DNA from: the human T2T-CHM13v2.0 reference genome, Homo sapiens
Direction of reading: 5' to 3'
Assembly (NCBI GenBank): GCA_009914755.4
Contig: CP086569.2
Location: 24,768,001 to 24,832,000, forward strand
Length of the DNA stretch: 64,000 nt
The notes below the pieces were generated by a model that was not told where the DNA came from, ran no database searches, and saw only the letters and a list, made by a program, of their open reading frames with translations. This document shows, piece by piece, positions 1 through 51,838 of the stretch. Both the position numbers and the translations under genes were made by a program. Positions within the stretch are counted from its first letter, which is position 1. Every line of letters begins with the position of its first letter.

Positions 1-1799
1 CTGCAATTCGAGTCACCAAGTGGTTAAGCTTACCAAAATCTCCTGTCATTCTCCAAGATCCACTTGTCTTCTGCACAGGTTAAATGGGAGAGTTGCTTTC
101 AGACGTGCTGGTAATGACCAACTGTGTGTCTTTCAAGTCGTTAATGATGGTACTAACCTTCACAATCTCTCTGGGGTTGTGATATTGTTTTTGATTTACT
201 GTATTTTCAGATAGAGGAAGCTCAAATGCTTCCATTTGCCTTTTCCCATTTTAGTAATCCTCACCCTACAGGTCAGGAAGCAAATGTGGGGTTCTACCAG
301 CAGCTAAGTGTGTCTATGTCAATAATGCATTCTGGCACTGGGAAAATGACCTTAGGATGACTCTAGGTACACGCTCGACCCACTGTAAGTCTGACGGGGG
401 CTAAAACTTTATTAATTGCCTGACCTTCATAAGGTTCTATTTTAACTGTAGAACCACAATGATGTTTCGGGTCTCCTGGAGTCAGTATCAGCTCAGATCC
501 AGGGTCCAGTAGCCTGAAAATTCTGATCATTTCCCTTTCTTCCAGGCATAGTTACCCTGACAAAATCCAGGCGTTACTTAAGGAACAATGAGAGAAAGAT
601 TCACTGCATAAATTGTTGGTAATGGAGTGGGGTCTTTCCTCAAGGGGATCCAGCCTCCCCTTCATTCAAGGGGTTCTGTGTCTTTAAATTGGCTCTGGTA
701 TGGAAATAGGTTGAGAAGCTGTGGTTCTGTTTTTATAATTTAGAATAGTTCTTCATCTATTTGACACCAAAGTTTTCTGTTTCTATAACTTAAGTAGGAA
801 TGCAGTAGGCTTTCTATCAATTTCACTTCCAGGAACACCTTGATTAATTAGCCAGTGCCAGGGTTCTACAGGTGTCAGACTCTTCTGATTGCTGCTTTGC
901 GACAGCTGTCCATTATGGTACCTACACCCACCTTGCCTTTGATGGTCGAGTGTTGCCACTTGGTTCCTGCCACCTTGGGATTCAATTATCCCTAGTGTAT
1001 TTAAATGTTATAGTTAGTGGCTGCAGTTCCCGCCCTTAGATCTGACACACAGAGAAGAGTAATTACAGAGCTGTTCAAAGATGCAGGTACTGCTCTGCTT
1101 CACAAGGCATTGATCAAGAATATATCCTCTGGACTCTCTCAGCTGGGATGAGTAGGTCTAAAGTGAACTAATCTACTCCACCATTCCAATCTCCCAAGGC
1201 CTTTGGATTTCATCCTTTACTTTAAACCAATGGAGAGCGGACATTTATAGAGCTCACTCACAGTGGGCCATCTTTGAATTCATATTTTAGCTAACCAAGC
1301 AGATAAACTATGAGAAATTCTTAGCTCCCTGTGCTGCATCTTTAAATGCAGAGTCCCTACTAGGTCAGCCCTAGTCAATAAATTCAGCCTGATACAACCC
1401 TGTGTTCCTTCTGCTATTATCCCATACCCTTAATATCCATTTGCTTCTGTGTTCTCTAGCCTGCTGTTCATGTATATTATAGAACTCAAACAGTTGTTCT
1501 TCAGTTTACCACAACTTCTCATGGGTTGCACTCTCAATATCACCGTAAAGAGCCCGCCAGTACTTTAGTTTAGTTATAGGCTTAGAACCAAACAGAGATG
1601 TTGGGGGTGGCCTCTGAGAAGAATCAACATTATCATACCTGGCAACTGACTCAGGGGAGGCTATCACTGTGGCCTCAGCCAGCACATGGTTTATCTCTAT
1701 AGGTAGAGGTGGAAAGACTGAAGGCAGCATGTACCTCTCTCTTCTGGGATGCAGAACAATAATTTGAGATCAGCTGACTATCAGGGCTGAATGACCTGT

Positions 1800-24708: not shown

Positions 24709-30914
<6,206 letters not shown>

Positions 30915-42755: not shown

Positions 42756-44690
42756 GTAGAAAGCTTTCTGTACTACACCAGAGAGTAAGAGATGTGGATT
42801 TAGCTACTCTCACTTGAGGCTACTAAGCCAGCTATCATGCACCATGAGACAAAGCCCAAGCTGTCCCACCAGGGCATAATTGTGGAGAGCCTAAAGCCCA
42901 TAGCATAGCTGCTATTTCAAACAATTTTCACTACGTCAGTGGTGATGAAATAGAATAGGCTCATCCATACGCAGAACCTGGTAAAGAACTGGAGGCAGAA
43001 AGAAGTGGCTATGTGGAGATGCAAATGAAACAAATTTGGCACAGCAACTACTTCAATCCTGTGTCTTTCTTCCTGGCTTTCCAGGAGTTTGAGGTTGAAA
43101 CTATTGTTGACAAAAGACGAGACAAAAATGGAAAGACAGAGGCCAGGCACAGTGGCTCATGCCTGTAATCCCAGCACTTTGCAAGGCTGAGGCGGGCAGA
43201 TTACGAGTTCAGGAGATGGAGACCATTCTGGCTAATACAGTGAAAACCTCTTTCTACTAAAAATCATAAAGTTAGCCAGGCGTGGTGGCAGGCCCCTCTA
43301 ATCTCAGCTACCCGGGAGGCTGAGGCAGGAGAATCGCATGAACCCAGGAGGTGGAGGTTGCAGTGAGCCGAGATTGTGCAATTGTGCCACTGTACTCCTG
43401 CCTGGGTGATAGCTCAAGACTTTGTCTAAAAAAAAAAACAAAACAAAACAACAACAACAACAACAAAAATTTTTGGTGTTGCAAAGGTTAAGAAGAAACG
43501 GTATGACACTTGGGAACCAGAGCAGCACCGGTCAAAAATATATATATTACTTTAACAGATGACAGACTGAAAAACAGAAAAAGTAAAAAAGTGGCATGGA
43601 CCAGAACAACTAGAACTTTTTCAAACAATACCAGAAGATGAACTTCTACATCTACCAAGCCCAACTTTTCTAAGAATACTCCTAAAACGCTAGTGTCTGG
43701 CCAACACCACAAATTCAAAAGCAGCCAGTTATGTTCTGCCAGCCAGAATGTTAGCAGTAATCCAGGGTCACCTCTGTCCGACCCAAAGAATATGGAGCTA
43801 CTGTGTTCAACTATCAAGAAAGACACTTGCCCCTTACAACCCTTTTAACAACAAGAACACAGTGAGTGGCATTCAGGAACTCTAGAATCTGGACCCTATT
43901 GCAGCAGATCAGCAGGATACAGTGGTCTTCAAGGAGGAGGAAGGGAAGATCATCAGGGCTTTATCAGATCCCAGGGCAGGACATTGTGGAATAGAGAGCA
44001 AGACCCAGATTCACCCACTATTTTCTCAGAGGTCTGGCTCAGTTACGGCTTCCATGGCTGCAGACTCAGCTACCAAAAAAGGTATAGTGGTATTAATGGG
44101 CCAATCGGCAGCCAATGGAAAAACAGATGTGCATACATTAGTTGCAAGAGTGAAAGTTGGGCAAAGAAATGTTACTGACGGTGGCAGAGACCAGCTTTTT
44201 ATCCAGAAGATGTACCTCATCATAGGCCTAGCAGAAAGTGCCAGCACATACAGAGATATTGCAGTGAAGAAAGAGGACAGATTCACCCAGATGTGCCTAT
44301 AAACTAGATCAACATAAAAAATGTACTGAATATAGAAGTAATTAAAGCAATGGTTAATGCTCTGAATAGGGCTGCTGTGGGTGGCAGCAAGCTTGTGCTG
44401 TTCAGTGCAGCTGGAAGTGTCTTTTGCTGTGGTCTCGATTTGGGGTACTTTCTGAAGTATTTAAGGAAGGACAGAAACAGAACAAGCCTTGAGATGGTGA
44501 ACACCATCAAGAACTTTGTGAATACTTTCAATCAATTTTAAAAGCCTGTTTTTGTATCAGTCAGTGGCCCATCCTTCGGAATAGGTGCATCCACACTGCC
44601 TCTTTGTGATTTCTTCTGAGCTAATGAAAAGCCTTGGTTTCAAACCCCTTATATGACATCTGGACAGAGTCCAGATGGCTGTTGTGTTAC
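42756..44690 (+). pseudogene. CDY-like pseudogene: the upstream copy of a tandemly duplicated CDY unit, interrupted by an Alu and by stops/frameshifts, 3'-truncated
   Basis: Nucleotides 42756-42900 align to 46555-46700 (the CDY 5' flank), and 43050-43140 aligns to the chromodomain codons (ccaggagtttgaggttgaaactattgttgacaaaagacgagacaaaaatgg). An Alu is inserted at 43141-43468. ORF 43922..44302 (MVFKEEEGKIIRALSDP...[20 protein letters not shown]...STYRDIAVKKEDRFTQ) and ORF 44350..44541 ([60 protein letters not shown]) are ~78% identical in protein to CDY residues ~175-300 and 330-395. There is a stop after ...FTQMCL and frame changes. Homology ends at ~44690, corresponding to CDY residue ~450. 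Confidence 0.8.
43141..43468 (+). mobile_element. Alu inserted into the chromodomain-coding region of the CDY pseudogene copy
   Basis: ggccaggcacagtggctcatgcctgtaatcccagcactttgcaaggctgaggcgggcagattacgagttcaggagatggagaccattctggctaatacagtgaaaacc...cactgtactcctgcctgggtgatagctcaagactttgtctaaaaaaaaaaacaaaacaaaacaacaacaac. The flanks gacaaaaatggaaagacagag | tttttggtgttgcaaaggttaagaagaaacggtatgacacttgggaacc correspond to contiguous CDY sequence gataaaaatgggaatacacag|tatttggttcggtggaaaggttatgacaaacaggatgacacttgggaacc in the intact copy. Confidence 0.9.
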
Positions 44691-44699
44691 TTTAGTTCC

Positions 44700-45130
44700 T
44701 ACTTGAACTTTGCATCATCCAGCCTCCTTAATTATTGTGGCCATGAGACATTACTTCATCCCTTGATTGATCCCAGGCCAAGGTCTCAGGCCAAGCTGTC
44801 ACTTCAGCTCCTTCTTGGTCCAGGGCCAAGTTCCAAGGCTGAGCCTTGTAGCTTCTACAAATCATCACTTCAGCTCCAGATGAATCCAAGGCCAAGTTTC
44901 AGGGCCAAGCCAAATGACACCTACTCCAAGAACACTAACCACATTTCTTTACTTCTCTGTCCTTAGAAACTGTAAAGCACAGCCTCATAGTAGGTAAACC
45001 ACTCACATTCCACCCCCACTGTGAAGAGTTTTTTACTTTCACTTATAAAAGTTTTGATTCAACCTTTTTGCATCCATCCTCCTTAATTTTCTTGGCCATG
45101 AGACAAAGAACTCTGTGTGATATCTCACAA
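44700..45130 (+). repeat. Unclassified repeat element with internal GGCCAAG(G/T)TC-type sub-repeats, copy 1; begins exactly where CDY-pseudogene homology ends
   Basis: tcccaggccaaggtctcaggccaagctgtcacttcagctccttcttggtccagggccaagttccaaggctgagcc...ccaaggccaagtttcagggccaagccaaatgacacc, then ttttgcatccatcctccttaattttcttggccatgagacaaagaactctgtgtgatatctcac. It is homologous to 51050-51440. Confidence 0.55.
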
Positions 45131-45179
45131 TTAGAGTTTTCTAGGTCGTAGTGCACTAATGAGACTGCAATGATTGAAG

Positions 45180-46550
45180 TCTGGGAATTGAGCTCTGGGA
45201 TGCATCAGCCTTGCGAGACCAACTGACACACTGTCCCCACACTGTGATACACACCCTTCGGGTCAGTCAACCATATAGTGGTCACCAATGGAGTCTGAAA
45301 AGGGGCAAGGCAGATTTATACAGCCTAGAAACCTGAGGGACACCATCAAGCAGCCATACATATGCATTTTGGAAGTTCCAAGGAAGAGACAAAAACTCAT
45401 GGATACTATTTAACAACATAGTCATAAAGAATGCAACAATTTAAGACAATAAGTAAGCACCCAAGGAGCTCAACAGACTCCAAGTAACAAAAACTCAAAG
45501 AAACAAACTCAAACTTACCTGATAATTAAACTGTCTAAAATAAATACAAAGAGAACCTTGAGGATTTTCAAGGGAAGCAGGGGAAGTAGCTAGTCATGTA
45601 AAAGGGACCCTAAAAATAACCAGTGGATCACTTATCTGAATAACCACCGAAAAGCAGTAGATTTCTTATCTGAAAACTGAGATAGAAAGCAGTAGCCTCA
45701 TATATTCCAAGTGATGTCAGAAAAAACTGTCAAGCCTAAACATTATGATCCACCAAACTGTCCATCAAAGGTGAGGGACAAATTATGACATTCCCATATA
45801 AAAACTGGCACCTTTTACAAGTAGACTACCCTTTAAGAAATGTCTTATGGAGTACTTCAGGGTAGAATGGACAGATACTCAAAAGCAGTATGAACAAACA
45901 AAGATTAAGGTAAAGATAAATACATGAACAAATATGTAAGATAAAAAATTTGGCTGGGCTCAGTGGCTCACACCTGTAATCCCAGCATTTTGGGAGGCTG
46001 AGGTGCTTGGATCACGAGGTCAGGAGATCGAGACAATCCTGGCTAACATGGTGAAACCCCGTCTCTACTAAAAATACAACAAATTCGTAGGGCCAGGTGG
46101 CAGGTGCCTGTAGTCTCAGCTACTCGGGAGGCTGAGACAGGAGAATGGCATGAATCCGGGAGGTGGAGCTTGTAGTGAGCCAAGATCTCACTACTGCACT
46201 CCAGCCTCATTGACAGGGCGAGACTCCATCTCAAAACAAAACAAAACAAAACAAAACAAAACGAACAATTAACAATGTGCACCTCCACAATTTGTTCTCC
46301 ACATAACTTAAAACACAAATATATTTAATAAAAAAACTACCACTAATTTGTGTTTTTGACATAAAATCAATAAAGGTATAATTTTGAGAACTCAGTAAGT
46401 GAAATAATGGAGGTACATTATACAGGAGTAAAGGCTTTGTATGTTACTGAAGGTAAGCTAGTGTAACTTTAAAAATGTTATAACATTAGAATGTTCCATA
46501 TAATCGTCATAGCAACCACAATTAAACAAAGAAACACAAAAGAGTAACAG
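45180..46550 (+). mobile_element. Ancient L1 (L1M-like) ORF1 segment upstream of the intact CDY, carrying an Alu at 45952-46264
   Basis: agaaacctgagggacaccatcaagcagccatacatatgcattttggaagttccaaggaag translates to LRDTIKQPYICILEVPRK, which is L1 ORF1-like. It is colinear with 41925-42740 of copy 1. Confidence 0.45.
45952..46264 (+). mobile_element. Alu with (AAAAC)n tail, present only in the intact-CDY copy of the duplication (~600 bp upstream of the CDY 5' flank)
   Basis: ggctgggctcagtggctcacacctgtaatcccagcattttgggaggctgaggtgcttggatcacgaggtcaggagatcgagacaatcctggctaacatggtgaaaccccgtctctactaaaaatac...gcactccagcctcattgacagggcgagactccatctcaaaacaaaacaaaac. It is absent from the homologous position in copy 1 (~42500). 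Confidence 0.9.
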
Positions 46551-46554
46551 GCAG

Positions 46555-46871
46555 GAAGAAAGCTTTCTGTACTACACCAGAGGGTTGGGGCTGTGGATTT
46601 AGCTACTCTCACCTGAGGCTACTGAGCAAGTTGTCATGCACCATGAGACAAAGCCCAAGCTGTCCCACCAGGCAGTAAGTATGGAGAGGTTCAGGCACAT
46701 GGCATAGCTGCTATTTCGCACAATTTTCACTACACCAGTGGTGACAAAATAGAAGAGGTTCATCCATACACAGAACCTGGTGAAGAGTTGGAGGCAGAAA
46801 GAAGTGTCTATGTGGAGACGCAACTGAAACAAAGGTGGCACAGCAACTGTTCCAATCCCGTGTCTTTCCTC
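46555..46871 (+). promoter_or_regulatory. CDY 5' flank / 5'UTR segment, conserved between the two tandem copies (42756-43050 is its counterpart); presumed promoter/UTR of the retrogene
   Basis: Colinear homology between the two copies of the duplication lies immediately upstream of the chromodomain codons. No CpG island or clear TATA box was identified, and the transcription start cannot be placed from sequence alone. Confidence 0.3.
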
Positions 46872-48494
46872 ATGGCTTCCCAGGAGTTTGAGGTTGAAGC
46901 TATTGTTGACAAAAGACAGGATAAAAATGGGAATACACAGTATTTGGTTCGGTGGAAAGGTTATGACAAACAGGATGACACTTGGGAACCAGAGCAGCAC
47001 CTCATGAACTGTGAAAAATGTGTACATGATTTTAATAGACGACAGACTGAAAAACAGAAAAAACTGACATGGACTACAACCAGTAGAATTTTTTCAAACA
47101 ATGCCAGAAGAAGAACTTCCAGATCTACAAAAGCAAACTATTCTAAGAACTCTCCTAAAACGCCAGTGACTGATAAACACCACAGGTCCAAAAACCGCAA
47201 GTTATTTGCTGCCAGCAAGAACGTTAGGAGAAAGGCAGCTTCAATTCTCTCTGACACAAAGAATATGGAGATAATAAATTCAACTATTGAGACCCTTGCA
47301 CCTGACAGCCCCTTTGACCACAAAACTGTGAGTGGCTTTCAGAAACTTGAGAAACTGGACCCTATTGCAGCAGATCAGCAGGACACGGTGGTCTTCAAGG
47401 TGACAGAAGGGAAACTCCTCCGGGACCCTTTGTCACGTCCTGGTGCAGAACAGACTGGAATACAGAACAAGACTCAGATACACCCACTAATGTCGCAGAT
47501 GTCTGGCTCAGTTACTGCTTCTATGGCCACAGGTTCAGCTACCCGAAAGGGTATAGTGGTATTAATAGACCCATTAGCAGCCAATGGGACAACAGACATG
47601 CATACCTCAGTTCCAAGAGTGAAAGGTGGGCAAAGAAATATTACTGATGACAGCAGAGACCAGCCTTTTATCAAGAAGATGCACTTCACCATAAGGCTAA
47701 CAGAAAGTGCCAGCACATACAGAGACATTGTAGTGAAGAAAGAGGATGGATTCACCCAGATAGTGCTATCAACTAGATCGACAGAAAAAAATGCACTGAA
47801 TACAGAAGTAATTAAAGAAATAGTTAATGCTCTGAATAGCGCTGCTGCAGATGACAGCAAGCTCGTGCTGTTCAGTGCAGCTGGAAGTGTCTTTTGCTGC
47901 GGTCTTGATTTTGGGTACTTTGTGAAGCACTTAAGGAATAACAGAAACACAGCAAGCCTTGAAATGGTGGACACCATCAAGAACTTTGTGAATACTTTTA
48001 TTCAATTTAAAAAGCCTATTGTTGTATCAGTCAATGGCCCTGCGATTGGACTAGGTGCATCCATCCTGCCTCTTTGTGATCTCGTGTGGGCTAATGAAAA
48101 GGCTTGGTTCCAAACCCCTTATACGACCTTTGGACAGAGTCCAGATGGCTGTTCTTCTATTACATTCCCCAAAATGATGGGTAAAGCATCTGCCAATGAA
48201 ATGTTAATTGCTGGGCGAAAGCTGACAGCAAGGGAGGCATGCGCCAAAGGCCTGGTCTCTCAGGTATTTTTGACTGGAACTTTCACCCAAGAGGTTATGA
48301 TTCAAATTAAGGAGCTTGCCTCATACAATCCAATTGTACTGGAAGAATGTAAGGCCCTCGTTCGCTGTAATATTAAGTTGGAGTTGGAACAGGCCAATGA
48401 GAGAGAGTGTGAGGTGCTGAGGAAGATCTGGAGCTCAGCCCAAGGGATAGAATCCATGTTAAAGTATGTTGAAAATAAAATTGATGAGTTTTAA
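46872..48494 (+). CDS. CDY1: Testis-specific chromodomain protein Y (CDY family), intact intronless 540-aa ORF with N-terminal chromodomain and C-terminal enoyl-CoA hydratase/crotonase-like domain
   Basis: The six-frame ORF 46788..48494 contains the first in-frame ATG at 46872 ([54 protein letters not shown]...). This region is a classic chromo box. Residues ~285-540 (...[20 protein letters not shown]...[37 protein letters not shown]...) have a crotonase fold, and the protein ends ...[11 protein letters not shown] recognise this as human CDY; the 540-aa length matches what I recall for CDY1 rather than the 541-aa CDY2, but the paralog assignment is uncertain (~0.55). The 28-codon N-terminal extension in the ORF track is a TTG-start artifact. 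The ORF is uninterrupted over 1.6 kb, consistent with a retrogene. Confidence 0.9.
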
Positions 48495-49524
48495 TTGTCA
48501 GTCTGTCTGCTCAGGACACAAGAACTAAGGGGCAACAAATGCATCATGAGTTGCAAGATGCCCTAATCCATCTTCATAGCCCAAAACAATTTCACCCATA
48601 GCTAAGGCTTGGAAACAGAACTGGAAATGTCCAAGCTATGTATTTAAATTATCACATCATTTTTAAGCACTGTAGCTTTACAAGGAGTAACAAAACAGCC
48701 TCTTTGCCCAAATGTGATTATTTTATGCACACCTAAGCCCAAATATAAAAACAGACTCTTCTTGCAAGCTCTAATATGTATCTATGGCTACTACTATATA
48801 TAAGACCAGAGTTGTGTTTTATTAGATGTTTGTGACAGAGAATCCTGTAATAATGTTGATTTTTTCTTATTTTTATATCCTAGAATACCTCTGTTGGGAT
48901 ATAAAGCAGCCTTCCCTCCCAGAAAGACACAGAATGATCAGAGATGGTGCCCTTGACTTTATAGTGGCACAAACGCTTCAGAGACACACAATTATAAGAG
49001 ACTTATCTTTTAGCATAAATACTTATGGCTCAAAATCCACTGACGATCATTCTCCTAAACTGAACACATGACTAGAATTGGTGGTGAGATATCGCTTGAT
49101 TTTCTTTTCCTTTATAAATGTCTAGTTCTTACCCAGTTAACAAAAGAAAACTTTATCGCTCTAAAGTAAAACTTGTTACACCACATTAGTGAATTATGGA
49201 ATGATTTTGGTGGAAATATCCAGGTTCTAATGTGTGGAATGTGCAGATTTAGGTTACTTTAGTGTATGTTCTAGTTAATAAGTTAAAATTCTGGACACAT
49301 TATTAAAGGCAGAAACTTCTTTCAAAGCAAACACCGCTACACTTTGTATGACCTTTACAATTATCAGTGTCTCTTTTTATGAGCACACAATTTTCTAGAA
49401 CACTGTATGTGCTCAGTTATGCAAAAGCTCTATGAATCCTGTCTTGTTGGTTTTTATCGAGGCTCCATTACATAGACATAATTGAATAATCCACTGGCCA
49501 CTGGTGATGAATGTCATCTTTGTC

Positions 49525-49945
49525 ACAAGATCTCTAGGGTGTCACTTCACCAGCCAAGAACCTCTGTGGATGATGGCACCTTTGTGCAAGGTTCCCTTGA
49601 GCCTGCTTTTCTAATTTTACAAACCCATCTTACAGGCTGCACTCAGCTCAAACTATGGGCTTAGGTTTCATTTTGCTATGGATGCACCAGGCACAGACTG
49701 GAGGCAGATGCATGAGTGAGTGTTGGTTCAGTCCAGCCACTGCACACAGCTTTGCCTGTTATCTGTGATGAGGTAAGCAGGTCAGGTGCTGGTACAGGTG
49801 ACAGCTCCCTGCAAATCTTTAGGTGAATCAGGCATACCACAAGCTTTCTCTTCTGCAGGCACTGAAGAATGCAGTGGCATCCACAAAAGAAGAAATGCCA
49901 GAAAATGCAAAGGCCCAAGGACGTCATCCTAGCCCTGGCATGGGA
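49525..49945 (+). repeat. More diverged copy (C) of the same unclassified repeat family, same orientation as copy B
   Basis: tttgtcacaagatctctagggtgtcacttcaccagccaagaacctctgtggatgatggcacctttgtgc... cttacaggctgcactcagctc... ccagaaaatgcaaaggcccaaggacgtcatcctagccctgg aligns with the B segments tttgtcatgagattttgggagagtcaccttgccagttgaaaacctctgcggccagtggtgcctttgcc / cctgacaggctgcactcagcttgc / ccagaaacagcaaagccctaaagagggtgtcacagccctgg. Confidence 0.55.
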
Positions 49946-51049
49946 AAGGTTTAGAGCTGGGGTATCTAAAGGGCCAATGTCCTGCTTTCTTTTTCCTTTT
50001 TTCTTTTTTTTTTTTTTTTTTCTTATCTATGGGATCACTATGACTTAAATTAGGGTTTTCAAAGGGCTCTGTCTCTCTTTCTACTGGAAATTAGCATCTT
50101 GTCTTTTCTTCACTCTTTCTCTCTTTGACTGCTTTTTATTTACTATGACATGCTATAGAAGAAATGCGTCTTGGCCCAGCATCTTTCTGTTGACTGTAGG
50201 GCTATTTGTCAGAAGCAGTAAGATTTTGGCTCAGCAATAAGGTAACATCTTCCCATTTAAGACCAAAAAAAGGGCTAGATATTAGAAAGGCTCTATATAT
50301 TTATTGATGTATCAGAAAACTTCCCCAGGTCTTACTTTATTTGTTTAAGGTACTGTAATGAAAAAGAAACTTGCACTTTACTGGCACCTCATTCATTGGG
50401 CATTTCCTATAGGGGTAGTAAGGAACGTGGAGGGTTGGATGTAAAAACTGGAAAAGCTGATGATGATGTGACTAAAAGGTTCTCTGCATCAAGAAGATGA
50501 GAAAACCTGTGGTAACAAATGTGGTTTTGAGTGTTTCCAGGGAGAATGTTTCTCTGACGTTTGGGAGTTGTTTCTTGTGGGCTTTTCTGATATGACTGCT
50601 AAGAAAGCAGGAACAATTTTACAGTATTTACAAAGATGTGGGTGGTTTCACAGGGCAAAAAGCCTTGCACATAGGGAACTTCAAACAATGTGCCTTTGAC
50701 TCTCAGAAACTATCTAGGTTTTCAATAGTATTGACAAAGAAAAGCTACATAGTTGTGGTGGATTATTGGTAAAATTTCTGCAAGCAGAGAAACAGCCTGA
50801 AATATCAGGCTGCAGACACAAATTTAAGAATCCTGCACAATCCTGTGGCACAAGCAAATAATTTTTTTAAAAAAGCCCAACTTTTTGTGTGTGTGTGCTT
50901 AAGACATGCCCACAGCTACTCAGATAAAAAAAAAAAAAAAAAAAAACAAGACCCCGCATTAAAATGTTGTGTCTTTTGTGTAACCAGAGTGCTTCCAGGA
51001 AATAGTCTCTCTCTTTTTTAGAACTTGTACATATTGGACTCCAATGTGT

Positions 51050-51440
51050 TACAAAGGGTACCTTATATTACTAAACATACTTCAGACTCCGAGCCAAATT
51101 TCTGTAAATTATCATTTAAGACTCTGGTCCCAGGCCAAGGTCCTGGGCCATGCTTTCCCTTTAGCTCTTGTGTGGCTCAGGGCCAAGTTCCTGAGCCAAG
51201 CTGAGTCATTACATCCGCCATTAATAGTTCCAGGCACAAGGACCCAGAAAAGATGAGAAGTGCTTTCTTCAAAACTAGTTAGTACCTTTTCTTCCTTCTG
51301 AGTCCATAAAAATATGAGACTCTTTCTCAAAGTGGGCAACTGACTCTACTCCACCAGAAGTTAACATATTAAACATTTACTATCATCTCACCTTTTGCAT
51401 TCCTAATTTTTAATTTTCTTGAAATTAAAAAGATCTGTGT
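51050..51440 (+). repeat. Unclassified repeat element, copy 2 of the GGCCAAG-rich element
   Basis: ctctggtcccaggccaaggtcctgggccatgctttccctttagctcttgtgtggctcagggccaagttcctgagccaagctgagtcattacatccgcc...ttttgcattcctaatttttaattttcttgaaattaaaaagatctgtgtgtcacc is colinear at ~75% with the 44776-45125 segments. Confidence 0.5.
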
Positions 51441-51545
51441 GTCACCTAAAAATGAGAGACTGATACATTGTGGTTCACTGGGGGACAGCAAGGTTTGTTT
51501 TTGGTTCATGGACTTGGAAAGGCCTTAATTAAAAAGGTCAGTAGG

Positions 51546-51838
51546 GGCTGGGCATGGTGGCTCATGACTGTTATCGCAGCACTTTGGGTGGCCAATGTGG
51601 GAAGATCAGGAGGAGATCAAGATGGAGATCATCCTGGCTAACATGGTGAAGCCCTCATGAAGTCTACCAAAAATACAAAAAATTAGCAGGGTGTGGTGGT
51701 GGGCACCTTTAGTGACAGTTGCTTGGTAGGCTAAGGCAGGAGAATGGCATAAACCCGGGAAATGGAGCTTGCAGTTAGCCAAGATCATGCAACTGGACTC
51801 CAGTTTAAGTGACAGAGAATCCATTAGAAAAAAAAAGT
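51546..51838 (+). mobile_element. Alu
   Basis: ggctgggcatggtggctcatgactgttatcgcagcactttgggtggccaatgtgggaagatcaggaggagatcaagatggagatcatcctggctaacatggtgaagccc...gcagggtgtggtggtgggcacc...ggcaggagaatggcataaacccgggaaatggagcttgcagttagccaagatcatgcaactggactccag. Confidence 0.85.

What the first reader, a model, noticed from the sequence alone, without database searches (positions are those of the whole stretch)
46872..48494. Intact CDY retrogene ORF (chromodomain plus crotonase-fold), with an ORF-track N-terminal extension that is an alternative-start artifact
The ORF is a complete 540-codon open frame with a chromodomain (residues ~6-60) and an enoyl-CoA hydratase-like fold (residues ~285-540) and no introns. 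This is consistent with established knowledge that CDY arose by retroposition of CDYL mRNA onto the Y and is testis-specific. The ORF track begins at 46788 (MEAERS...), but the track demonstrably translates GTG/TTG starts as M: ORF 20..214 starts with gtg. The first genuine ATG is therefore at 46872 (MASQEF...). An AATAAA hexamer lies inside the last codons (gaa aat aaa att) and should not be over-interpreted as the polyA signal.
Basis: partly seen in the sequence, partly recalled or inferred. Interest (0 to 1): 0.55.

Follow-up and report, generated by a model that had tools for sequence, protein, structure and literature searches.

The report
Human CDY1 gene, intact copy
This is an intact copy of the well-known human Y-chromosome gene CDY1, a testis gene that arose as an intronless copy of the CDYL messenger RNA.

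Summary
The ORF at 46872..48494 (+) is real. It is 540 codons plus a stop and is by far the longest ORF in the window. Its product is 100% identical, end to end, to human CDY1 isoform a (CDY1_HUMAN), and differs at 11 positions from CDY2.

It has a chromodomain (Pfam Chromo, residues 6-57) and a crotonase-fold domain (ECH_1, residues 294-536). The crystal structure of CDY1 (2FBM) matches with no mismatch over residues 282-531.

The 28-codon upstream extension starts at a TTG. It has no in-frame ATG and carries stop codons in marmoset, so it comes from the ORF tool's start-codon rule.

Removing 48464..48883 (420 nt, GT..AG) reproduces the RefSeq isoform b exactly.

The locus is colinear with spliced CDYL mRNA from one base before the ATG to about 49400, without interruption. 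The mouse parent gene spans 203 kb. This supports a retrogene origin.

An ATTAAA at 49302, shared with the CDYL 3'UTR and with orangutan, is the better poly(A) candidate.

Verdict: observation confirmed, interpretation supported, already known, low interest. One side observation: a dead tandem CDY pseudogene lies at 41912..44750.

The parts
46872..48494 (+). CDY1 coding sequence, major isoform a (540 codons plus TAA)
   Evidence: The translation is identical to CDY1_HUMAN / NP isoform a. The ORF is listed.
46788..46871 (+). In-frame upstream stretch that the ORF tool adds as an N-terminal extension (TTG start). It is most likely 5'UTR and not coding.
   Evidence: It has no in-frame ATG. The TTG is CTG in orangutan, and the marmoset equivalent has two in-frame stops. 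The database proteins start at MASQEF.
46887..47042 (+). Chromodomain (residues 6-57), with aromatic cage F6/W28/Y31 and clasp residues E5/N46
   Evidence: Pfam PF00385, E 1.4e-19. PDB 6V41, CDY1 chromodomain, E 9e-38. The cage residues named in bioRxiv 10.1101/820647 are present in the sequence.
47043..47714 (+). Hinge region between the two domains (residues 58-281), the fastest-evolving part
   Evidence: No Pfam domain matches here. dN/dS over residues 65-281 is 0.65-0.69, against 0.27-0.30 in the ECH domain. Conservation is low in alignment A1.
47715..48491 (+). Crotonase-fold (enoyl-CoA hydratase/isomerase-like) domain, residues 282-540
   Evidence: Pfam ECH_1 covers 294-536, E 1.2e-34. 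No mismatch to PDB 2FBM (CDY1) over residues 282-531; 4 differences from 2FW2 (CDY2); 76% to CDYL 2GTR; 39% to ECI2 2F6Q.
48464..48883 (+). Optional 3' intron (420 nt, GTATGT...polypyrimidine tract...TAG) used by the minor isoform b
   Evidence: Joining 48463 to 48884 gives a 554-aa product identical to NP_001003895.1 isoform b. The donor and acceptor are conserved in orangutan and marmoset. The span is colinear with the CDYL stop codon and 3'UTR, so the intron arose after retroposition.
48884..48956 (+). Coding part of the second exon of isoform b (…K IPLLGYKAAFPPRKTQNDQRWCP, then stop)
   Evidence: A similar C-terminal tail is annotated in the macaque CDY protein P0021.
48264..48883 (+). Alternative longer intron (donor CAG|GTATTT, same acceptor) that yields the predicted 470-aa isoform X1
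   Evidence: The spliced translation equals XP_011529786.1 (P0005). This is a model prediction only.
48474..48479 (+). AATAAA hexamer inside codons 535-537 (E-N-K), probably not the main poly(A) signal
   Evidence: It is absent from CDYL mRNA at this position, where the sequence is AGAGGAAGAT. Isoform b requires transcription at least through 48956.
49302..49307 (+). ATTAAA, candidate poly(A) signal of the CDY1 transcripts
   Evidence: It is the first hexamer downstream of the isoform-b stop. It is conserved in orangutan and aligned with an ATTAAA in the CDYL 3'UTRs L004 and L001. Its use was not tested.
46871..49404 (+). Span detectably colinear with spliced CDYL mRNA (CDS plus 3'UTR). This is the recognisable retroposed segment.
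   Evidence: blastn of L004 333-2688 matches 46871-49202 and L004 2865-3049 matches 49225-49404. Mouse L001 matches to 49381.

Best explanation
**What it is.** The feature is an intact copy of the human Y-linked gene CDY1 (CDY1 or CDY1B; the two copies cannot be told apart here). CDY1 is a processed retrogene derived from a CDYL mRNA.

**Gene structure.**
- The real start is the ATG at 46872. The 28-codon upstream extension comes from counting TTG as a start codon.
- The major product (540 aa) is made from an unspliced message.
- A minor product (554 aa) arises by removing a 420-nt intron (48464..48883). That intron evolved inside what was formerly the stop codon and 3'UTR.

**How the protein most likely works (inferred, not tested here).**
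- The N-terminal chromodomain docks on H3K9me3 through the F6/W28/Y31 cage. This has been shown for this exact sequence in the literature.
- The C-terminal crotonase-fold domain binds CoA or an acyl-CoA.

My estimates for what the C-terminal domain does:
- About 0.5: it acts like its parent CDYL as a crotonyl-CoA hydratase and corepressor that lowers histone crotonylation locally in spermatids.
- About 0.35: it is a non-catalytic CoA-binding scaffold.
- About 0.15: it is a histone acetyltransferase, as originally proposed.
For: **Identity**
- Exact look-up finds the 540-aa product as CDY1_HUMAN / 'testis-specific chromodomain protein Y 1 isoform a' / 'chromodomain Y-linked 1B' (identity re-checked).
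- It differs from CDY2 at 11 positions, including the one-residue length difference.
- The spliced products equal isoform b and the predicted isoform X1.

**Domains and structures**
- PDB matches 2FBM, 2FW2 and 6V41 are.

**Start codon**
-.

**Retrogene origin**
- The CDS is contiguous in human, orangutan and marmoset. In each the called gene is 1623 nt.
- The locus is colinear with spliced CDYL mRNA over 46871-49404.
- The mouse Cdyl gene spans 203 kb for a 593-aa product.
- The protein is colinear with the 544-aa CDYL over its full length, at 63-65% identity.

**Selection**
- dN/dS is 0.41-0.51 within the CDY lineage and 0.27-0.30 in the ECH domain.

**Mechanism**
- The aromatic cage and H3K9me3 selectivity (Kd about 0.5 uM) are reported in bioRxiv 10.1101/820647.
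- Residues of the crotonase core motifs are identical between CDY1 and CDYL.
- S463 lies in the invariant GLVSQVF motif. It is the probable equivalent of CDYL S467, whose S467A mutant lacks hydratase activity.
- The histone acetyltransferase activity was reported as not reproducible (PMC6408431).
Against: **Identity.** Nothing argues against it.

**Retrogene hallmarks that are missing**
- No poly(A) remnant or target-site duplication was found.
- Homology to the 544-aa-isoform CDYL mRNAs starts only one base before the ATG, so the 5' end of the retroposed transcript is undefined.

**Mechanism**
- Both catalytic glutamates of the canonical hydratase ECHS1 (E144, E164) are replaced, by S397 and Y417. 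The same is true of CDYL.
- Hydratase activity has been shown for CDYL, not for CDY1.
- One Cdyl knockout study saw no global change in crotonylation (cited).
- The mapping of S467 to S463 rests on the four-residue difference in length between the 544-aa CDYL and CDY1, together with the gapless alignment of the two proteins over the crotonase domain. That S467 is numbered on the 544-aa isoform is assumed.
Confidence: 0.97

Rival explanations
1. The ORF is CDY2 (CDY2A/B) or another CDY paralogue, not CDY1.
For: CDY2 is 98% identical and falls in the same 90% cluster. The CDY2 crystal-structure chain 2FW2 scored slightly higher than 2FBM in the PDB search, because it extends to the C-terminus.
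Against: The product has 11 differences from CDY2, including a one-residue deletion (540 aa against 541 aa), and none from CDY1. 2FBM (CDY1) has no mismatch in the aligned region, while 2FW2 has 4.
Confidence: 0.01
2. The protein really starts at the TTG at 46788, giving a 568-aa proteoform with the MEAERS... extension by non-AUG initiation.
For: The frame is open for 28 codons upstream of the ATG in human, and also in orangutan.
Against: There is no ATG in the extension. The TTG is CTG in orangutan. The marmoset equivalent has two in-frame stops. All database proteins, and the crystallised chromodomain construct (residues 2-63), start at MASQEF. The chromodomain's N-terminal strand with F6 forms part of the peptide-binding site.
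Confidence: 0.02
3. CDY1 protein is a histone acetyltransferase that drives histone H4 hyperacetylation in spermatids. This was the original functional proposal (Lahn et al. 2002).
For: UniRef and GenBank entries for near-identical sequences carry the name 'histone acetyltransferase' (P0013). Reviews cite Lahn et al. 2002 for a chromatin-remodelling role.
Against: No acetyltransferase family matches the protein. The only catalytic-type domain is the crotonase fold. [quoted passage not shown] The closest non-CDY relatives are enoyl-CoA isomerases (ECI2, 39%).
Confidence: 0.15
4. The crotonase-like domain is catalytically inert and serves only as a trimerisation and CoA-binding or protein-docking module. 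On this view CDY1 is purely an H3K9me3-reading scaffold.
For: Both ECHS1 catalytic glutamates are replaced, by S397 and Y417. dN/dS is raised about tenfold relative to CDYL (0.4-0.5 against 0.05). A Cdyl knockout without a global crotonylation change is cited.
Against: The same two substitutions occur in CDYL, for which hydratase activity and an inactivating S467A mutant are reported. The ECH domain is still under purifying selection (dN/dS 0.27-0.30). The core motifs are invariant from marmoset CDY to mouse CDYL.
Confidence: 0.35

Closest known systems
Human CDY1 / CDY1B (UniProt CDY1_HUMAN; RefSeq isoforms a and b)
   Same: The 540-aa product is identical residue for residue. The spliced 554-aa product is identical to isoform b, and the 470-aa product to predicted isoform X1.
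   Different: Nothing differs at the protein level. These tools cannot decide which of the two palindrome copies this is.
Human CDY2A/CDY2B
   Same: Same architecture, 98% identity, and an identical chromodomain.
   Different: Eleven differences: R109C, I125T, +K150, R189H, I203M, D263G, S281I, I317M, K352R, N357D, P487A. CDY2 is 541 aa.
CDYL (autosomal parent gene; 544-aa isoform)
   Same: Colinear over the full length, with the same two domains. The crotonase domain is 76% identical, with the core motifs and S397/Y417/S463 unchanged. The mRNA is colinear with the CDY1 locus through the 3'UTR.
   Different: Overall protein identity is only 61-65%. CDYL is a multi-exon gene spanning about 200 kb in mouse. 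It evolves about ten times more slowly at non-synonymous sites. Cage residue 6/7 is Y in CDYL and F in CDY1. CDYL binds both H3K9me3 and H3K27me3, whereas CDY1 is selective for H3K9me3.
ECI2 / PECI (peroxisomal enoyl-CoA delta isomerase 2), crotonase superfamily
   Same: It is the closest non-CDY fold relative (39% identity over about 250 residues). It shares the NGPA(I/V)G and GQSP(D/E)GCS motifs.
   Different: ECI2 has no chromodomain and is a metabolic enzyme. It has E where CDY1 has D425 in GQSPxGCS. Neither protein has the two ECHS1 glutamates.

Membership tests
Human CDY1 gene | Protein sequence identical to CDY1 isoform a and distinct from CDY2 | tested here: met
   Exact look-up and string comparison give 540/540 identical residues, with 11 differences from CDY2.
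Human CDY1 gene | A short 3' intron that yields isoform b | tested here: met
   Removing 48464..48883 gives a 554-aa product identical to NP_001003895.1.
Human CDY1 gene | Location in the AZFc yellow amplicon (palindrome P1) of the human Y chromosome | not testable with these tools
   No human genome is searchable here. There are only indirect hints: the source names give Homo sapiens 'chromodomain Y-linked 1B' on contigs of about 62 Mb, and the literature places CDY1 in the yellow amplicons (PMC2918367).
Human CDY1 gene | Testis-specific expression | not testable with these tools
   No expression data are available. The literature supports it.
Chromodomain (Pfam PF00385), HP1/Polycomb-like methyl-lysine readers | Profile match above the curated threshold | tested here: met
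   70.2 bits against a cut-off of 25.1, over residues 6-57.
Chromodomain (Pfam PF00385), HP1/Polycomb-like methyl-lysine readers | Three-residue aromatic cage | tested here: met
   F6, W28 and Y31 are present. The structural study names them as the cage. W28 and Y31 are invariant in alignment A1.
Chromodomain (Pfam PF00385), HP1/Polycomb-like methyl-lysine readers | Binding to methylated H3K9 | not testable with these tools
   Published for the identical chromodomain, with Kd about 0.5 uM (PDB 6V41).
Crotonase (enoyl-CoA hydratase/isomerase) superfamily | Profile and fold membership | tested here: met
   ECH_1 scores 120 bits against a cut-off of 27. The solved structure 2FBM is of the same sequence.
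Canonical enoyl-CoA hydratase (ECHS1 type) | Catalytic glutamates E144 and E164 | tested here: not met
   Alignment with rat ECH 1DUB gives E144 to S397 and E164 to Y417. CDYL has the same residues. CDY1 is therefore not an ECHS1-type hydratase. Any hydratase activity must use another arrangement.
CDYL-type crotonyl-CoA hydratase | The serine needed for CoA binding and activity (CDYL S467) | tested here: inconclusive
   S463 in the invariant GLVSQVF motif is the residue four positions lower in the gapless C-terminal alignment. That S467 is numbered on the 544-aa isoform is assumed.
Processed retrogene | Intronless coding sequence where the parent gene has introns | tested here: met
   The CDY1 CDS is contiguous. 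Mouse Cdyl spans 202.7 kb for a 593-aa product.
Processed retrogene | Colinearity with the mature parental mRNA beyond the CDS | tested here: met
   The CDS and about 900 nt of 3'UTR of spliced CDYL mRNA contigs align without interruption to 46871-49404.
Processed retrogene | Poly(A) tail remnant and flanking target-site duplications | tested here: not met
   There is no A-rich tract where homology ends (about 49400) or where a full-length 3'UTR would end (about 49800). This is expected for an old insertion, so the result weighs little.
Histone acetyltransferases (GNAT, MYST, p300 families) | A recognisable acetyltransferase domain | tested here: not met
   The Pfam scan returns only Chromo, ECH_1 and ECH_2, plus two sub-threshold chromo-like hits.

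The most novel reading that the evidence does not exclude
The CDY retrocopy may not always have been Y-bound. An intact, intronless marmoset 'CDY1-like' gene lies at 146.5 Mb of a 167-Mb chromosome record. Its non-coding 5' flank is colinear with the human CDY1 5' flank. So the locus moved between the Y and another chromosome by DNA-level transposition, or else the original insertion was not on the Y. A neighbour-joining tree also places the CDY clade outside all eutherian CDYL sequences, which fits an insertion far older than simians.
Probability: 0.15. Interest if true: 0.35.

Novelty: already known. Interest (0 to 1): 0.07.

Why it matters
CDY1 is one of the four protein-coding gene families of the AZFc region, and deletions of AZFc are a leading genetic cause of spermatogenic failure. 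Recognising the gene correctly, with the right start codon and isoform structure, matters for annotating this window. It adds no new biology. The open question is what the crotonase-like domain of CDY1 does: crotonyl-CoA hydratase, acetyltransferase, or scaffold. Sequence analysis cannot settle that.

Tried and rejected
- **Exact-product look-up of the human gene's contigs** found nothing on record. The copy (CDY1 or CDY1B) and its chromosomal coordinates therefore could not be established.
- **Rfam scan of the whole window** returned no match at gathering thresholds.
- **Lahn et al. 2002 (PMC124363)** is not held in the library. A search for 'CDY1 minor' / 'CDY1 major' found no paper, and PMC4971549 has nothing on transcript structure.
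- **CDYL genomic DNA for mapping exon junctions onto CDY1** was not available, because the gene range is too long. Only the 203-kb span could be used.
- **Search for a poly(A) remnant or target-site duplication** beyond 49400 found nothing convincing. The alignment with the distal CDYL 3'UTR decays into noise after about 49400.
- **CDY2 identity** was rejected (11 differences).
- **A coding N-terminal extension** was rejected.
- **Structure prediction and fold search** were not run, because crystal structures of the same sequence exist.

Full report
**1. The observation**

The ORF tool lists a single long ORF at 46788..48494 on the + strand. It is 568 aa and starts at TTG. Reading the DNA and re-translating it shows that the first in-frame ATG is at 46872. 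From there the frame runs 540 codons to a TAA that ends at 48494. None of the 28 codons between 46788 and 46871 is ATG, and in-frame stops lie further upstream.

That ORF does begin with GTG. The AATAAA hexamer is at 48474-48479, inside the codons gaa-aat-aaa-att.

The ORF is more than twice as long as any other in the 64-kb window. The runner-up, at 257 aa, is an L1 ORF2 fragment.

**2. What it is**

An exact-sequence look-up finds the 540-aa product in public collections as 'Testis-specific chromodomain protein Y 1' (CDY1_HUMAN), as 'isoform a', and as 'chromodomain Y-linked 1B [Homo sapiens]'. A string comparison confirms 540/540 identity.

CDY2 differs at 11 positions, including one extra lysine, and is 541 aa. 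So this is CDY1 and not CDY2.

Pfam places a chromodomain at residues 6-57 and an ECH_1 crotonase domain at 294-536, both far above their curated thresholds. The PDB search returns three relevant crystal structures:
- the CDY1 crotonase-like domain (2FBM), with no mismatch over residues 282-531;
- the CDY2 domain (2FW2), with 4 mismatches;
- the CDY1 chromodomain (6V41).

**3. Gene structure**

Joining 48463 to 48884 removes a 420-nt intron. It has a GTATGT donor and a polypyrimidine tract followed by TAG. The join gives a 554-aa product identical to RefSeq isoform b, with its stop ending at 48956. An upstream donor at 48264 joined to the same acceptor reproduces the predicted 470-aa isoform X1.

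The donor and acceptor dinucleotides are conserved in orangutan and marmoset. A macaque CDY protein carries an isoform-b-like tail.

The intron span aligns at 64-67% with the stop codon and 3'UTR of CDYL mRNA. So it is an intron that arose inside formerly exonic sequence after retroposition.

The AATAAA at 48474 is specific to CDY. CDYL has AGAGGAAGAT at that position. It is also the only canonical AATAAA within 3 kb downstream. Isoform b requires transcription past it.

An ATTAAA at 49302 is conserved in orangutan. It aligns with an ATTAAA in the CDYL 3'UTRs. It is the best poly(A) candidate, but its use is untested here.

The upstream extension is not conserved as coding sequence. The TTG is CTG in orangutan, and the marmoset equivalent contains two in-frame stops.

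**4. Retrogene origin**

A homology search finds CDY proteins only in simians:
- orangutan and siamang, 90-91%;
- macaque, 83%;
- squirrel monkey, marmoset and tamarin, 67-73%.

After these come CDYL proteins of all mammalian orders at 61-65%. CDYL is colinear with CDY1 over its full length.

Spliced CDYL mRNA contigs were fetched from transcriptome assemblies: mouse (L001-L003) and another mammal (L004, L005). They align to the window without interruption from 46871, one base before the ATG, through the CDS and 3'UTR to about 49400. The mouse parent gene occupies 202.7 kb of genome for a 593-aa product. The CDY genes of human, orangutan and marmoset are each a contiguous 1623 nt.

This is the expected signature of a processed retrogene. 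Two classical hallmarks are missing:
- No poly(A) remnant or target-site duplication could be recognised.
- The 5'UTR of the 544-aa-isoform CDYL mRNAs is not homologous to the CDY1 upstream sequence.

The literature attributes the origin to retroposition of CDYL (Lahn and Page 1999, cited). PMC4772468, citing Dorus et al. 2003 among others, dates it before the eutherian radiation.

My neighbour-joining tree puts the CDY clade outside eutherian CDYL in 157 of 200 bootstraps, and never with primate CDYL. This agrees with the old date. The long CDY branch makes long-branch attraction a real caveat.

**5. Is it functional, and how does it work?**

dN/dS within the CDY lineage is 0.41-0.51 overall and 0.27-0.30 in the crotonase domain. 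Between two CDYL mRNAs it is 0.05. So constraint is relaxed but purifying selection is clear.

The chromodomain carries the aromatic cage F6/W28/Y31 and the E5/N46 clasp. A structural study showed that these make CDY1 a selective H3K9me3 reader, with Kd about 0.5 uM. The residues were read.

In the crotonase domain, alignment with rat enoyl-CoA hydratase shows that both catalytic glutamates are replaced: E144 by S397 and E164 by Y417. I entered the rat sequence from memory, and it proved 100% identical to PDB 1DUB. The same two residues occur in CDYL. The closest non-CDY relative is the isomerase ECI2, at 39%.

CDYL is reported to be a crotonyl-CoA hydratase, inactivated by S467A, a CoA-binding defect. 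The residue four positions lower in the gapless C-terminal alignment is CDY1 S463, in the invariant GLVSQVF motif. That S467 is numbered on the 544-aa isoform is my assumption.

The original histone-acetyltransferase proposal is reported as not reproduced. No acetyltransferase domain is detectable.

I therefore favour an H3K9me3-anchored, CDYL-like acyl-CoA-binding module. My estimates are hydratase or corepressor about 0.5, inert scaffold about 0.35, and acetyltransferase about 0.15. None of these activities was or could be tested here.

**6. Context**

The surroundings of CDY1 in the window are as follows:
- **Upstream pseudogene.** Immediately upstream lies a tandem, dead CDY copy at 41912..44750 (+).
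  - Its 5' flank and body match the CDY1 flank and CDS at 69-85%.
  - The start codon is CTG.
  - An Alu is inserted at about 43142-43471.
  - There are many frameshifts and stops.
  - It is truncated near the position of residue 430-449.
- **Age of the duplication.** The pseudogene-plus-gene arrangement is present in orangutan, where the locus is colinear over 41087-54501 at about 90%. Marmoset has a single copy.
- **Alu.** An Alu sits at about 45952-46263 in the CDY1 upstream region.
- **Marmoset copy.** The marmoset gene used for comparison lies on a 167-Mb record, too large to be a Y chromosome. Even so, its 5' flank is colinear with the human one. A marmoset T2T preprint reports CDY on the marmoset Y as well.

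**7. Verdict**

The feature is the known human gene CDY1. Nothing in the ORF departs from the reference protein. Novelty is 'already known' and interest is low.

Noticed in passing
window 41912-44750 (+): A tandem, degenerate CDY pseudogene lies directly upstream of CDY1. It is a DNA-level duplicate that includes more than 1 kb of 5' flank (69-85% nucleotide identity). It has ATG changed to CTG at 43073, an Alu insertion at about 43142-43471, multiple frameshifts and stops, and truncation near the equivalent of residues 430-449. The same arrangement is present in orangutan (L006) but not in marmoset (L007).
   Followed up: partly
L007 4001-5623 (marmoset, CM111789.1 at 146.47 Mb of a 167.4-Mb record): An intact, intronless 'CDY1-like' gene lies on a chromosome record far too large to be a Y. 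Its non-coding 5' flank is colinear with the human CDY1 5' flank (window 45320-45948 and 46264 onward). Homology stops at window 49226. This suggests DNA-level movement of the CDY locus between chromosomes, or an assembly issue.
   Followed up: partly
window 48464-48883: The optional CDY1 3' intron lies in sequence colinear with the CDYL stop codon and 3'UTR. It is therefore an intron created after retroposition, out of formerly exonic sequence. The splice dinucleotides are conserved to marmoset.
   Followed up: yes
alignment A1 and the neighbour-joining tree; dN/dS: The CDY clade branches outside all eutherian CDYL sequences (157 of 200 bootstraps) and evolves about ten times faster at non-synonymous sites than CDYL. 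This is compatible with a pre-eutherian retroposition, as stated in PMC4772468 citing Dorus et al. 2003, but long-branch attraction is not excluded.
   Followed up: partly
window 45952-46263 (+): An Alu element with an (AAAAC)n tail is inserted in the CDY1 upstream region, about 600 bp before the ATG. It is absent from the paralogous pseudogene flank and from the marmoset locus.
   Followed up: partly
window 25272-27051 and 32158-32931 (-): Broken ORFs on the minus strand have L1 ORF2-like (reverse-transcriptase and endonuclease-type) sequences. They were judged by eye from the translations only.
   Followed up: no
window 49986-50025: A long T-rich run (ttttccttttttctttttttttttttttttttct) lies about 600 bp beyond the end of detectable CDYL-mRNA homology. 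It is on the wrong strand to be the retrogene's poly(A) tail. Its origin was not examined.
   Followed up: no
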